A stretch of DNA of 64,000 nucleotides from positions 18,016,303-18,080,302 of the forward strand of contig CM082577.2 of NCBI GenBank assembly GCA_040954595.2, given 5' to 3'. The position numbers and the translations under genes are program-made. The stretch comes from Balanoglossus misakiensis. Its lineage: Eukaryota; Animalia; Hemichordata. Positions 23,001-41,000 of this stretch are shown here, one piece after another. The stretch's first letter is position 1. Each line of letters begins with the position of its first letter. The notes under the pieces were generated by a model, which did not search any database, was not told where the DNA came from, and was given only the letters and a program-made list of their open reading frames with translations.

Positions 23001-26000
23001 AACTCCCTCCAGGTACCATTACAGTCAGCATACAGAAAATACCACAGTACAGAAACTGCACTTCTTAAAGTACACGACGATATCTGTTTATCCGTGGACT
23101 CTGGCAACTATGTTCTTCTCATCCTCCTTGATCTCTCTGCTGCTTTTGACACAATTGATCACAATATACTACTTCATCGACTCTCGCATCTTGGTATCTC
23201 CGGTGTCGCACTCAAATGGTTCACTTCATATTTGAAGCAACGGGAACAGTCTGTTAAAATCAACGATGTCATCAGTGAACCATCAGAACTCAGCTTCGGC
23301 GTCCCTCAGGGCTCAGTTCTCGGGCCTCTATTGTTTACTATCTACATTGCTCCACTATCAAATACGATACACAAGCACAATCTACAATTTCACCAGTACG
23401 CAGATGACAACGAGCTTTATCTTTCATTTTCTCATCGTGACTCTCCCGAAGCCCTGTCTAAAATAGATTGAAACCTTCATTCTTGACATCAAGGAATGAA
23501 TGACCCATAACAAACTCCAGCTCAACGACAGTAAAACCGAAGTCCTTCTGATTCGCTCCAAGTTTAACAGCTCACCATATCCTGTTAACAGTGTCAACAT
23601 TGGTTCCACTTCTGTCACACCAGTTTCATCTGCTCGCAATATTGGCATGATCTTCGACAATAATCATATGTTCAGTCAGCACATAAAGTACACCTGCAAA
23701 TCGATCTACAGTCACCTCCGCCGAATTGGATCTATACGACGTTACATCACCAACGACACTTGCCAAACCTTAGTACATGCAACTCTATCTGCCAAACTTG
23801 ACTACTGTAACTCACTCCTGTATGGTCTACCAGAAAACACAATCGCCCTATTACAAAGAGCTCAGAATACTTCAGCCAGAATAGTCATGCGCACTACGAA
23901 ATTCACACCTATCACCCCAGTCCTTGCCCAGCTCCATTGGTTACCAGTTCGTCTCAGGATCGACTACAAAATTTTGTTGATAACTTTCAAAGTTATCCAT
24001 AACCAGAATCCCGCTTACATCAGTGATTTACTCCAGCCATACACTCCCACTCGTACACTGCGTTCATCCACCAAGAAACTCATAACATGTACAACCTACA
24101 AAAACAAGACCTATGGCGGCTGTGCCTTCTCTTATGCAGCCCCTAAACTGTGGAACGCACTACCTCTTGACATCAGGGAATTGGAACAGTGAGGGATGAA
24201 GCCCTTGAACTGGCATGATTCATTCTCACACTCCTGGCCGCTAGGAGTTTGGGATAGAGAGTGTGGAATTAATAGAATCTCACACTCCCAAGTACCTGGG
24301 ATCGTATTTCTCACACGAGTTGGTTTTTTTTGTCCCATACGAGCCGCAGGCGAGTGTGGGACAGAATATCCCTGACGAGTGTGAGAAATATGATCCCAGG
24401 TCCTTGGTGTGTGAGATTATTTTTCTCACACGGCCACAAATTAGCCAAATCCGTTAAAAAACATTGAATAAATGACTCTGGAACTGTCGTCCGAGCACAT
24501 TGTAGTCTCTGTCCCTATAATACACATCGCGCCATTGGATAACATTTAGCGCGCGTTAGCAAAAGAATGCTTTGTCAACCAATCAGCGCTCGCATCATAT
24601 ACAGCTTTCCATTCAGTGAGAGTGTGGGATCGATTTGTTCTCATAACACTCTGTTCTCACACTCCCAGCGTGCCAGGAGGGTGAGAACAAGTCGAACCCA
24701 CACTCTGCGTTAATGCGCACACAGACAACTATTATCTGACACGAGCTCTGATTGGATAATGATATTCGTACCCCTCAGAACGAGCAAATATTATAGAAAT
24801 AATGGACGACTCCCTGACCATTAACGATTGTTTATGGGCAAGGGCGAGAGGAAAGCCAAAAATTCATGAGCGAGGCTTCCGAGCCCACGAACTCAAGAAA
24901 ACCGTCAAAATTTATGAAAATGTCCCACACAAAAGACTATAGGGCCCCGGAACTTGTGTTACGCAAAATGTTGTATTCACTGAACTGTTTGTTAATATTA
25001 CTATTCAGATTTACGGGCATGTAAACAAACCATTACTGAGTATTTGTGGTCAGTGGCGTCGTTCATCTCGACCAATTAAAATGCCACGCACAGGCCATGG
25101 TAATATAATATCCAATTGTGTGACGTGTTGTACATGAACCGGAACTACAATGTGATCAGGTCATGTGCAGACGACAGTGCTGGTGGTGTACGTGGTAGGT
25201 GACAGACTCGCAAAAAACGGTTGTATTTTCTAGATATCGCACGAATTTATGCCACTGGAAACTATCTCCATATTTTAATGTTTTGAGCACATCTTTGTAG
25301 CATGGGTGTACTGTAAACTCGTGATGAAATGGGGACTATGTTTTGCGGGGTGGATCAATATATGACCAGTCATGCAGTTATCAGCTGGTATTTTATAGAT
25401 TTAGTTCTTTTATTGTAAATAAACGTGAATATTGCAAACTTGTGGTTGTGTGAGAAATAGAACCTCACACACCAAGGACCTGGGAACGTATTTCTCACAC
25501 TCGTCGGGGATAATGTTCTTGGGAGTGTGAGATTCTATTATTCCCAACCAAACAACAGATTTAAAATAATGAAATTGTTTATCTTTATCACGAAAAATCA
25601 TTATTATAATGAAGTTATAAATGGTGCGCTTGGGTATTTGGTACAAGTACGGAAAGTTATTGTATGATTCTGTCCCATAGATTATGGCAGTAGGTATACA
25701 ATTATCCTTTAAATTATTAAGCAAGTCCAAGTGGCAAGTCAGATCATTGTTGAAATATTACCACTATCAAACAAGAAAAAAAGTCAGACATGATTTCTCT
25801 ATGTAGATCAATATCGCCTCCACCACTGAAACCATTTCAACTGGTAGTGAATTGGTTTGGATACTCATTTAAACAGATATCAATAACATTGCCGTAACTC
25901 ATACACTGTCCTTTACTGACCTGATAGAAATCATACCACACTACATCTGGAAAGTATGCCTTGACTTTTGTTGCATCCACATCCAAAACGGGTGAAATCA

Positions 26001-38000: not shown

Positions 38001-41000
38001 TAGCGGGCAATATCAGCGCACGCGACAGGGCTTTATCAACTCTAGCCATGTTATATCACTTTTTTTTCTATATCACGTGAGCGCGTCTCAGCCAATCACG
38101 AATACGGTATAATACGTGAGGTGTAATAATAAACCTTATGTCTGTGAACTCACATTGGTCATGTTACCGGTTTATATTTTTCTGCTATTTCCCTAGGGAT
38201 TCATAGTCGATTCTATTTTCCTATCACGTGACGGATTCTGGCGAATCACGACACAGTATTAGCATGAGGTATATTATAATGAACACCTATTGCCTGGCCA
38301 TGAGGGCCATAACGGCCGTTTATTACACCCGAGGGGCTGTGAGTTACCAGAATCACATGCTATTTCCCGAGGCCGTAGGCTGTGAGTTACCAGAATCACA
38401 TGCTAGGCCGAGGGAAATAGCATATGATTCTGGTAACTCACAGTCACGAGGGGGTAAAAACGGCTGAAATAGCATATGATTCTGGTAACTCACAGTCACG
38501 AGGGGGTAAAAACGGCTGCTATGGCCCGAATATAGGCCAGGCTATAGGTGTTTTATAATAAACCTCATGCTAACATCTGGGAAAATCTTGCAATTTTCTC
38601 TTGAGGTTGGCAGACGACATCTTCAGCGGTGGCCATTGTGTCAGACGACGCGACGCTGATTGACGTGACCGAGTCTGCGCACTCACGCTGGTCACGTGAC
38701 CGGTTGATATTTTTTCTGCTATTTCCCTAGCGGTTCATAGTCGATTCTATTTTCCTATCACGTGACGGATTCTGGCGAATCACGGCACAGTATTAGCATG
38801 AGGTATATTATAACAGCAAATATGAACTGAATATGCTCCCAAGTTCTAAACTGAACATCAAAAACACTTTGGTCCCGATTTGCAGATTGCACAGAAATAG
38901 GTGTACACCGGAATAAAAAATTACATGCTGTTGAAATTGGCAAGCAGACATGACTGCTGCTCTGGAGGTTTTTGGGCCAAAAATATCGATCTTTTTTTTT
39001 TCATTTATTAAATTCCCAAATTCCCAGTACATCTCTGTGTAGCCAAGACAAACATTTTTAGTTTGTAAATTGACACAAAAATTTGAAAAGCAAGAAGAAA
39101 TATATATGGAGGGTAAGACTTTCGTGTAAGTTTCTGACCATCGTCAACCCCCCCCCCCCCCCCCCCCCCCCATACAGGAATCACATGCAATGACATCAAC
39201 AGAAAATTTCAAACAAACAAGATTTGTTGGTCTGGGAAGACACTGTGTTCATTGATACTGGGATTATTAAACACTGAAAAAACTTACTACTATGTTAATG
39301 TAATGTTGACCATGAGAATGCAGATCTTTTACCAGTTGGCCCAATTCAGCAAATTTTGTCTTGTCATAAGTCCAGTCTAAGTGATTATCCATATAATCTA
39401 TATCATTCCACTGAGTGTCCTGAAATTAAATTTGCAGGTTAAGTGTTTTTCAGATGCAATAAATTTCAAAATTAAGTCAAAGTATTTCCTTGGCAAAGAG
39501 TGATAATCCATTTTGAAACATAAATTTTCCCTACTTGAGTATATTCTATCATGAGGACTTTCAAGTGAGACACAGCTTATTAGCAGACTGAACAGTCAGT
39601 AAGACATGAATTCTCCATATACGTCAACTGGTCAACCATTTAAGAAGTTCTTTGGTAGTTAAATTAATAAATGTCTGCATGTGTGTGTATGTGTATATGT
39701 ATGTTTGTAAAGGAATGTACAGTAAGTAACAAACAGTAGTAGTCTAAGAGGAAAAAGGTGATGCATGCTAGCAACCAATACTTGGCTGTTTTGCTTGATA
39801 GTTGAGTGTGACACTCAGAACACCACTGTGGTGTTTATTGTTTGTTTTTTGTTCCTAAATGGTCTATTAGGAGCTGCTGCTTGACTGATCATAGAGAACT
39901 TACTTGTGGAATTTCATACATTCTCATTTTCTGAACAATTTCCATAGTTCTGTTGGCACTGTTATATCCCCATCTGCACAGATGAAATCCTAGACTCCAA
40001 TATGGTGGCATAAATGGTTGTCCGATCACCTCAGAATATTGCTGAATAACTTGCTCAGGAGTAGGACCAAGGAAGACATAGAAATCTAGAATTCCTCCAA
40101 TTGTTCTGTATGTGATGGCAGGGGTTGGCTGCAAAATAACATCTGTCACAAAATCCAGAGAATCACACACTTTATTATACATGATTTATTATCAAAAACA
40201 ATAGATACATTTTTGTACCAAACAAAAGAGATATCACACAGTGTAGACTAAACATCAAACAGAATGGCTGATACATGTATCTAGCTTTTGAAGTGAATTT
40301 GTAGTGTAGAATAGTACTAACCCATTGCATTACTGTTCAGTAGAAAAACACCATGTGAATAACCATTGGGTTCAACTGCAAGATAAAATGGATGGGAGCC
40401 ATACAGGTTTACATTCTCCTGTAAAAAGGTAAAGAAGGGAACAATTAGCAATCTTGATTTAGGAGACTGTGGGCTTCAAAAGAAATACAAATTCTGACAA
40501 TGAAACTGAAAAATTCTGACTAGTACACTCTTGATATACTAAAAGACCAAGTGTACTCACTTTCATCAAACTATTTACAAGCAAACATAGTGTCAATGAC
40601 ACATGTGCTACACTAGTTAGTTCACAAACTGTAATGAGTTTATGAATTCAACACAATTCTGACTATATTAGAAGTACGTACATACAGTAGATATATGCTT
40701 GATAGGATTATGGATATGAGCTGTTGTTTGTCATTTGAACAAACCTGTAAGAGTCCACAGGACCTGGCAAACAATGTCGACCAATATGACATTCTGTGCA
40801 AATGGCGAAACTTTTGTTTTGGATTAGTATTTCTCTGGTTTCAAACACAGCCACTAAGTAAAGATGACTGAATAAATGTTTCAAAACACCGCTGGTGCAC
40901 AGACGAAGTAGGCTTTTTTTCTCACTGGGAAACAAACAAACAGACAAAAAATAAAGAATCAACAACCCCCGTCATGTTAAACAACACGGGGTATTGAATT

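What the first reader, a model, noticed from the sequence alone, without database searches (positions are those of the whole stretch)
24265..38813. Unrelated mobile elements share a strand-specific ssDNA hairpin code (GNA triloop plus tandem G.A pairs)
Seen: seven elements with no evident shared primary sequence end in a 120-210-nt hairpin with one apex grammar, C-GA-(2-4 bp GC stem)-GNA-(stem)-GA-G. Examples: CGA-gcc-GCA-ggc-GAG (24340), CGA-cc-GCA-gg-GAG (minus, 32739-51), CGA-cgc-GTA-gcg-GAG (33986), CGA-gcc-GTTA-ggt-GAG (minus, 34793-808), CGA-ggcc-GTA-ggcc-GAG (37012), and CpG-decayed versions at 37250 and 37568. Most also place CGAG opposite CGAG further down the stem, on the same strand (B, E, F, G, H; decayed in C). 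Known: GNA triloops and sheared tandem G.A pairs in a Py-GA-Pu context are unusually stable in single-stranded DNA, whereas the complement (TNC loop, TC/TC mismatch) is not. Inference: structure rather than sequence is conserved, so the mobilising enzyme probably reads a folded single strand, as integron integrases do with attC or HUH enzymes do with IS200/REP hairpins. Candidate partners are Crypton-type tyrosine recombinases or Helentron HUH proteins; none is encoded in this window. The families may already be in repeat libraries, but I do not know of this structural code being described.
Basis: partly seen in the sequence, partly recalled or inferred. Interest (0 to 1): 0.85.

Follow-up and report, generated by a model that had tools for sequence, protein, structure and literature searches.

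The report
Crypton-type transposons with one-strand hairpin ends
Several families of small, gene-less, high-copy DNA elements in this animal genome start with a long hairpin whose G·A mismatches are kept on one strand only, and five copies also carry an inner mirror of their own joined ends; recombinase-coding Crypton transposons in another animal are built the same way, so these are likely Crypton derivatives that likely jump as a folded single DNA strand.

Summary
All five intact caps are at the stated places (0.45 expected by chance). Family majority letters restore CGAG at the two decayed caps. In the arms, 10 of 18 adjacent mismatch pairs are GA/AG, against 0 of 15 in control palindromes. 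The same pattern holds in 8 of 9 families from unrelated contigs.

New here: on the GA strand the hairpin is the 5' end, and in 5 of 10 copies tested the far 3' end pairs with the bases just inside the hairpin. Each such element thus holds the reverse complement of its own end-to-end junction, like the ICR of DIRS retrotransposons. In a coral-like assembly, 6 of 14 DUF3504 tyrosine-recombinase (CryptonA) loci have such a hairpin within about 400 nt, three with a clear junction mirror.

Best reading: non-autonomous CryptonA elements recombined as folded single strands. Limits: the window has no recombinase and no homology to those Cryptons; GNA loops are not invariant; the cap also occurs in ssDNA viruses and phages; no mechanism step is shown. 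I found no such description in 8 paper searches. This scan reported the same design on other DNA before.

The parts
24267..24420 (+). Family A hairpin; cap C-GA-GCC-GCA-GGC-GA-G at 24340-24354, one GA/AG block in the arms; 3' end of the element not fixed (CCAATCAG box at 24579)
   Evidence: junction mirror not found
24792..25109 (+). Family K copy 2 (right arm deleted); cap C-GA-GG-CTT-CC-GA-G at 24871-24883, loop not GNA
25434..25546 (-). Second, internally deleted copy of family A arms, without cap
6163..6561 (-).
   Evidence: 0 of 300 shuffles
32220..32812 (-). Family B whole element: hairpin 32682-32807, cap 32739-32751, junction mirror, tail whose last 14 bases pair with the mirror
   Evidence: 0 of 300 shuffles
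33925..34380 (+). Family C whole element: hairpin 33926-34060, cap 33986-34000, junction mirror about 34045-34072, tail; other copies begin at 33925
   Evidence: 0 of 300 shuffles
34388..34875 (-). Family D element, tail-to-tail with C: hairpin about 34735-34875, cap with GTTA loop 34793-34808, two GA/AG blocks, CCAATCAG box near the 3' end; junction mirror not found in this copy
36916..37133 (+). Family E hairpin without its tail in this copy; cap 37012-37028; other copies continue into the tail seen at 38560
   Evidence: loose ends at 37129
37160..37510 (+). Family F whole element: hairpin 37165-37350, decayed cap 37250-37266 (majority CGAG), two GA/AG blocks, junction mirror 37352-37364
   Evidence: 0 of 300 shuffles
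37505..38130 (+). Family G element, 5' end clipped where F abuts it: decayed cap 37568-37582 (majority CGAG), 480-nt tail, only a weak 10-base junction mirror; minus-strand peptide resembles a Crypton N-terminus but not significantly
38131..38279 (+). Shortened tail-only copy of family E; its 3' end abuts the next copy's 5' end and forms a natural end-to-end junction
38274..38813 (+). Family E whole element (hairpin with internal duplications, junction mirror 38545-38573, tail)
   Evidence: 0 of 300 shuffles

Best explanation
These are high-copy, gene-less elements, likely non-autonomous CryptonA transposons, whose GA-carrying strand is predicted to fold so that the joined ends pair with an inner mirror copy, likely giving a tyrosine recombinase supplied by a full-length Crypton a double-stranded site made from one strand. 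Shown: the hairpin, the one-strand G·A pattern, the junction mirror in five copies, TA-rich ends, empty sites without a long duplication, and the same layout round recombinase genes in another animal. Inferred: (1) the GA strand is released as single-stranded DNA; (2) sheared G·A pairs and the mini-loop make that strand, not its complement, fold fast and stay folded; (3) the ends are held together on the mirror and joined; (4) the recombinase exchanges one strand of the folded junction with a TA-rich target, often the end of another element, which builds head-to-tail arrays; (5) host replication resolves the product, as in integrons.
For: Cap and arm statistics. Family majority keeps or restores CGAG. 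Out of sample, a scan fixing only the cap returned 120 loci; 45 of 60 AT-rich ones have long stems against 2 of 60 GC-rich ones; in the best member of each of 9 families, 14 of 19 adjacent mismatches are GA/AG and none TC/CT. Junction mirror at 0 of 300 shuffles in 5 of 10 copies, always 3' of the hairpin on the GA strand. Natural tandem junctions pair with the mirror in the window (38274), L289, L212 and L322. Depth over the elements is about 1000 times that of unique flanks, a crude sign of high copy number, and paralogous empty sites skip 33925-34885. In G001, 6 of 14 Crypton-recombinase loci have a GA hairpin within about 400 nt against a rough background of 3% (2 hairpins in 48 kb); the mirror matches the far end beyond the gene in L300 and L302 (0 of 200 shuffles) and weakly in L321 (p 0.035), and the tandem junction in L322. 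The enzymes are DUF3504/phage-integrase hits and R-K-H-R-H-Y is kept in 46-48 of 48 full-length homologues. The GA strand is antisense to the gene in L300, L302 and L321 but sense in L322, so it follows the element's ends, not transcription. CGAG blocks with sheared pairs are established by NMR (PMC10085684, passages).
Against: No recombinase or HUH gene in the window (50 of 70 long ORFs scanned; profile search of all 2131 six-frame peptides, best E 0.25). No DNA match between the window's elements and G001 beyond a microsatellite and one 28-base hit. The peptide in G's tail scores only E 28-83 against N-terminal profiles and found only unrelated proteins. So membership rests on architecture. 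The mirror is absent or weak in A, D, G and the truncated E and K2 (5 of 10), and an automated test on metagenome loci passed in only 4 of 22 (arm ends were often misplaced). 8 of 14 recombinase loci show no GA hairpin (two end within 113 nt of the gene; one has a hairpin with single mismatches). Loops vary: GTTA, GCTA, CTT, TTT; 7 CTT-loop caps in G001. Two of 30 copies of one family (L193, L216) have the cap flipped relative to the arms. The cap is not specific: it occurs in ssDNA viruses and tailed phages. No single-stranded or circular intermediate was observed.
Confidence: 0.58

Rival explanations
1. The elements are Crypton derivatives, but recombination uses a conventional double-stranded circle. 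The hairpin and mirror act in another step: they restore or join the ends (as the ICR does in DIRS), serve as a single-strand origin or primer site, or extrude as a cruciform.
For: This fits the published circle model (PMC3212892) and the DIRS model, where the ICR is essential and the circle is thought to become double-stranded before integration (PMC7192593, passages). The G·A features lie far from the junction. The same cap is common in ssDNA replicons: 6 of 7 distinct motif-bearing viral contigs under 3.5 kb encode a CRESS Rep, and the cap is found in about 220 viral stretches against 13 and 15 for two controls.
Against: It still needs a single-stranded stage to explain one-strand G·A pairs. 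A cruciform forms on both strands and would not by itself tie the GA strand to the strand on which both ends pair with the mirror (5 of 5, plus L300, L302, L321, L322).
Confidence: 0.24
2. The elements are non-autonomous Helentrons (DINE-1/HINE type) moved by an HUH Rep/helicase that nicks a folded single strand.
For: No target duplication, T/A-rich targets, tandem arrays, a 5' inverted repeat and asymmetric repeats are all Helentron traits (PMC4067079, passages).
Against: Helentron 3' subterminal repeats lie 38-60 bp from the end and are followed by a small palindrome; here the 3' repeat is the last 12-21 bases, pairs with an internal segment, and no palindrome follows. The same layout brackets tyrosine-recombinase genes. 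No Helitron family hit among 54 and 72 ORFs of the AT-rich loci. The empty Helitron search of G001 had no positive control and is not counted.
Confidence: 0.08
3. The hairpins work as RNA or were kept for a host function, such as regulation of the surrounding glucosidase gene.
For: Tandem G·A pairs in a CGAG context are also stable in RNA (recalled). Most elements lie between exons of a GH31 gene.
Against: No Rfam match in the window. The GA strand lies on both strands of the host gene and either way round relative to Crypton genes. GNA triloops are a DNA motif (PMC3201870, listing). The pattern belongs to the family majority, not to this locus.
Confidence: 0.05
4. The pattern is a by-product of mutation or assembly in palindromes, or all elements are recent offshoots of one ancestor.
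For: Caps of several families are near-identical short strings, and shared end boxes suggest common ancestry.
Against: Control palindromes show 0 of 15 GA/AG. Decay runs away from the motif, not towards it. Arms are unrelated between families. The motif recurs in contigs from other samples and assemblers.
Confidence: 0.02

Closest known systems
CryptonA DNA transposons and their non-autonomous derivatives (Kojima and Jurka 2011, PMC3212892; Eulor5/6 and salmon Crypton-N in Kojima 2018, PMC5753468)
   Same: Short high-copy derivatives; TA-rich 5-6 base ends, no long terminal repeat or target duplication; the same end layout found here round DUF3504 recombinase genes in G001.
   Different: The 2011 paper reports no terminal repeats and no conserved DNA in animal Cryptons and no study of their transposition. 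The hairpin, G·A pattern and junction mirror are not in the passages read. The window's own elements carry no recombinase. I recall that Eulor5/6 and the salmon elements begin with a long hairpin; I could not check it (figure and Repbase not available).
DIRS retrotransposons with an internal complementary region (PMC7192593)
   Same: An internal segment complementary to both extreme ends, a tyrosine recombinase, single-stranded DNA intermediates, and insertion into existing copies.
   Different: No reverse transcriptase or inverted LTRs. The mirror sits at the foot of a 120-210 nt terminal hairpin with G·A blocks.
Integron attC sites and integrase (PMC5027507, abstract); CTX phage attP with XerC/D (recalled)
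   Same: A tyrosine recombinase site predicted to form by folding one strand, with strand choice set by unpaired features, and head-to-tail arrays.
   Different: Eukaryotic; the unpaired features are sheared G·A blocks far from the crossover, closer in role to the attC spacer and terminal structure than to its extrahelical bases; nothing is shown biochemically.
Helentron / DINE-1 / HINE elements (PMC4067079)
   Same: No target duplication, T-rich targets, 5' inverted repeat.
   Different: No 3' palindrome; the 3' repeat is terminal and pairs internally; no Rep/helicase seen.
d(GNA) mini-hairpins and CGAG blocks (PMC3201870 listing; PMC10085684 passages)
   Same: The cap and arm mismatches are exactly these motifs.
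   Different: Described as physical chemistry or promoter structure, not as transposon ends, in what I read.

Membership tests
CryptonA (non-autonomous) | Sequence link to a DUF3504 tyrosine-recombinase element (coding remnant or shared terminal DNA) | tested here: inconclusive
   No significant protein or DNA match for the window's elements. [quoted passage not shown]
CryptonA (non-autonomous) | End architecture shared with recombinase-coding Cryptons | tested here: met
   GA hairpin plus junction mirror in 5 of 10 window copies and in L300, L302, L322, weakly L321. This feature is my own criterion, not a published one.
CryptonA (non-autonomous) | Short 4-6 base direct repeat of similar sequence at both ends, no long TIR or TSD | tested here: inconclusive
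   Ends read TTATAA-like at both sides in E, F and K, less alike in B, C, D. One set of paralogous empty sites shows no long duplication. Too few flanks to fix the core.
CryptonA (G001 loci) | Tyrosine recombinase with R-H-R-Y tetrad and DUF3504 domain | tested here: met
   Pfam PF12012 and PF00589 hits; residues kept in 46-48 of 48 homologues.
Helentron / HINE | 3' subterminal repeat 38-60 bp from the end, followed by a small 3' palindrome | tested here: not met
   The 3' repeat is the last 12-21 bases and nothing follows it (definition from PMC4067079).
Helentron / HINE | Rep/helicase partner with the same ends | tested here: inconclusive
   None in the window or the AT-rich loci; the G001 search had no positive control.
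Canonical Helitron | 5' TC and 3' CTRR ends with a short 3' hairpin | tested here: not met
   Ends are TA-rich at both sides.
DIRS retrotransposon | ICR complementary to both ends | tested here: met
DIRS retrotransposon | Reverse transcriptase and inverted LTRs | tested here: not met
   No RT within the window elements; L300 and L302 hold only the recombinase between their ends.
Integron attC-type site | Recombinase prefers one folded strand | not testable with these tools
   Needs biochemistry.

The most novel reading that the evidence does not exclude
Animal Cryptons are a eukaryotic counterpart of integron cassettes and CTX phage: their tyrosine recombinase integrates a folded single strand whose joined ends form the site, and sheared G·A blocks with a DNA mini-loop select the strand. 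One structural grammar then lets many families with unrelated sequence move and stack into arrays.
Probability: 0.45. Interest if true: 0.88.

Novelty: new variant of a known kind. Interest (0 to 1): 0.7.

Why it matters
How Cryptons move has been assumed, not shown, and their ends are described as nearly featureless. A defined hairpin, a junction mirror and a fixed strand turn that into direct tests with short oligonucleotides and one enzyme. They also give a structural rule for finding and classifying many unlabelled palindromic repeats in animal genomes. If the folded-strand route holds, it would be a single-strand-specific tyrosine recombinase native to animal cells.

Tried and rejected
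No whole genome is held for the window, so no genome-wide scan. Pfam on 50 of the 70 long window ORFs found no recombinase or HUH protein; Rfam found nothing. The Crypton-like peptide in G's tail gave no hit in the word-based search, three repeat-rich proteins in the full search (the one I read is unrelated) and E 28-83 against my profiles, so it is not counted. ORFs round the AT-rich metagenome loci (54; 70 of the 112 listed, plus two window ORFs) showed host genes only; three 300-residue ORFs near hairpins proved unrelated to each other. Metagenome contigs could not be searched as genomes. Two more viral scans gave no recombinase-coding element. DNA searches of G001 with window elements returned a microsatellite and one 28-base hit. 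The Helitron search of G001 was empty without a positive control. Folding energies cannot test the strand claim. The bacterial promoter scan does not apply to an animal. Run X3 (share 0.07) was laid once and adds little. A degenerate DNA scan for recombinase genes could not be run; the Pfam route through G001 answered that question for one other genome only.
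Full report
Setting. The window is animal DNA of about 37% GC with exons of a GH31 glucosidase on the minus strand, LINE fragments and a DDE transposon. No whole genome is held. Labels A-K below are mine.

Observation. Each cap tops a 120-210 nt hairpin. Outside the caps, 10 of 18 adjacent mismatch pairs are GA/AG (7 of 8 elements; none in C) and none is the complementary TC/CT, while 8 other palindromes of the window give 0 of 15. Arms of different families match no better than 9 bases in 28 comparisons. Contigs from one sample laid on 33460-39500 give summed depths of about 14,000-58,000 over the elements and about 20 over unique flanks in run X1; the tool warns this is no copy number, but it shows high-copy families. 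On 36900-37700 only 17 positions differ in 25% or more of depth; three restore CGAG in the decayed caps of F and G, several restore stem pairs, and none removes a G·A mismatch.

Anatomy. On the GA strand the hairpin is the 5' end, followed by a 150-480 nt tail. The last 12-21 bases of the tail are complementary to the bases just after the hairpin's right arm. The segment at the foot of the hairpin is thus the reverse complement of the junction that the two ends would form. This passes at 0 of 300 shuffles in K1, B, C, F and the full E copy. It fails in A, D, G (10-base match only) and in the truncated E and K2. No upstream control passes at that level. At 38274 a tail-only copy abuts a full copy, and this natural junction folds onto the mirror. 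Ends are TA-rich, often TTATAA-like. Most tails carry a CCAATCA/GAATCAC box near the 3' end. Paralogous empty sites skip the C+D block with no long duplication. E, F, G and two more E-family pieces stand head to tail over 1.9 kb.

Other genomes. A metagenome scan that fixed only the cap returned 120 loci, of about 1800 estimated. Long stems surround it in 45 of 60 AT-rich loci and 2 of 60 GC-rich ones; the AT-rich loci carry animal-type genes. They fall into 9 families. The best member of 8 has extra GA/AG blocks, 14 of 19 adjacent mismatches in all, none TC/CT. Across all 30 members of the largest family there are 21 GA/AG and 3 TC/CT among 35, and two copies (L193, L216) have the cap flipped against the arms. 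An automated mirror test beat all 30 shuffles in only 4 of 22 loci, one probably spurious; by reading, the mirror is present in the L205/L212 and L179 families. A repeat in an AT-rich multi-segment IMG/VR record has a tandem pair whose natural junction pairs with its mirror.

The cap alone is wider than these elements. In IMG/VR it occurs in about 220 stretches (estimated, redundant) against 13 for a loop-flipped and 15 for a perfect-stem control. Six of the 7 distinct contigs under 3.5 kb among the first 78 loci encode a CRESS Rep; many others are tailed phages. Few have long stems. This supports a link to single-stranded DNA but not a recombinase-specific code.

Partner. One GTDB record, G001, holds much animal DNA; its recombinase proteins are 95% alike to coral entries. 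It has 112 GNA caps against 18 for the reversed pattern and 25 for a TNC pattern, 7 of them one CTT-loop string. It holds Crypton recombinase loci. Of 14 examined, 6 have a GA-type hairpin within about 400 nt: L300, L302, L321, L322, L325 and L329. A rough background is 3%, from 2 hairpins in 48 kb. Of the other 8, one has a hairpin with single mismatches (L303), two end within 113 nt of the gene, and five show none. The mirror matches the far end beyond the gene in L300 and L302 (0 of 200 shuffles) and weakly in L321 (p 0.035); in L322 it matches the natural tandem junction. Caps there read GAA, GTA, GCTA and TTT. The GA strand is antisense to the gene in three and sense in L322, but the hairpin is its 5' end in all four. 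The catalytic residues are kept in 46-48 of 48 full-length homologues. The window's elements show no sequence link to these: no DNA match and only a non-significant likeness of G's tail peptide to the recombinase N-terminus. Membership is inferred from architecture; I put it at about 0.85.

Mechanism. A G·A pair can form only within one strand, so selection for it on one strand points to a folded single-stranded stage. On that same strand both ends pair with the mirror, which would hold them together and build a duplex site across a TA-rich core. I take the recombinase to act on that folded site, as integron integrase does on attC (about 0.65 given Crypton). The G·A blocks lie far from the core, so they more likely choose and stabilise the strand than contact the enzyme. 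The main rival keeps the single strand for end-joining or priming and recombines a duplex circle. How the strand is released is unknown in both.

Literature. PMC3212892 (parts 1-2 of 7, passages, Additional file 1; five other supplements not read) reports no terminal repeats in animal Cryptons and no study of transposition. PMC5753468 (passages; Fig. 1c not held) files Eulor5/6 as Crypton and has no occurrence of 'hairpin' or 'palindrom'. PMC13465315 (passages) has none either. PMC8969392 (passages) gives only a short direct repeat as the Crypton hallmark. PMC7192593 (passages) shows the DIRS ICR is essential. PMC4067079 and PMC4344730 (passages) define Helentron ends. PMC5027507 (abstract) covers attC strand choice. 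PMC10085684 (passages) and PMC3201870 (listing) cover the chemistry. Eight searches found no description of this end structure. Repbase, Dfam, subscription journals and bioRxiv supplements were not searchable and may hold one. CTX phage and the Eulor hairpins are recalled, not checked.

Earlier notes. After I had found the mirror, the scan's index showed several unchecked reports of the same design in coral, mollusc and plant DNA, most filing it under CryptonA and one under Helitrons. They are not counted as evidence.

Verdict. A real, strand-specific structural signature on elements that are probably non-autonomous CryptonA: a new variant of a known kind with a testable mechanism. Interest 0.7.

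Noticed in passing
window 14190-20661: Element with perfect 112-bp terminal inverted repeats holding a THAP + DDE_Tnp_4 transposase (14350-15810), a YqaJ-type nuclease (17220-18485, minus) and a SAP-domain piece; looks like an ISL2EU-type transposon (label recalled), possibly young.
   Followed up: no
window 28381-44442 (minus): Exons of a trefoil + GH31 alpha-glucosidase gene; elements B to J lie between its exons.
   Followed up: no
window 46523-58396 (plus): Exons with an EPTP domain followed by repetitive beta-rich exons of unknown family.
   Followed up: no
window 3049-3401, 52052-52220, 53298-53654, 15952-16447, 19846-19955, 21486-21848, 4178-4785, 40930-41719: Other long palindromic or TIR repeats without the G·A pattern; used as controls only.
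   Followed up: partly
window 7862-9901 and 22959-24192: Two broken LINE reverse-transcriptase fragments; the second ends about 75 nt before element A.
   Followed up: no
G001 (L292): A GTDB record titled as a bacterial MAG in which many contigs are animal, coral-like DNA with Cryptons and microsatellites, beside a few large bacterial contigs: host contamination in the database.
   Followed up: partly
L019, L037, L040, L044, L051, L076: Small Rep-encoding ssDNA viruses carry the same cap, five of six outside long ORFs, often among several GNA mini-hairpins.
   Followed up: partly
L198:1640-1700 and L063:4980-5040: The same cap on a perfect 21-bp stem next to IS21-type genes (IstB and a transposase-like ORF) in bacterial or phage DNA.
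   Followed up: no
L193, L216: Copies whose cap is inverted relative to the arms, either template switching in the palindrome or mis-assembly.
   Followed up: partly
L273, L274, L285, L288, L289: An 891-bp repeat with two GA-capped hairpins and a junction mirror, in several segments of one AT-rich IMG/VR record.
   Followed up: partly
window 33925-34885: C and D sit tail to tail with about 10 extra bases between them, and paralogous sites lack the whole block, as if the pair inserted together.
   Followed up: partly
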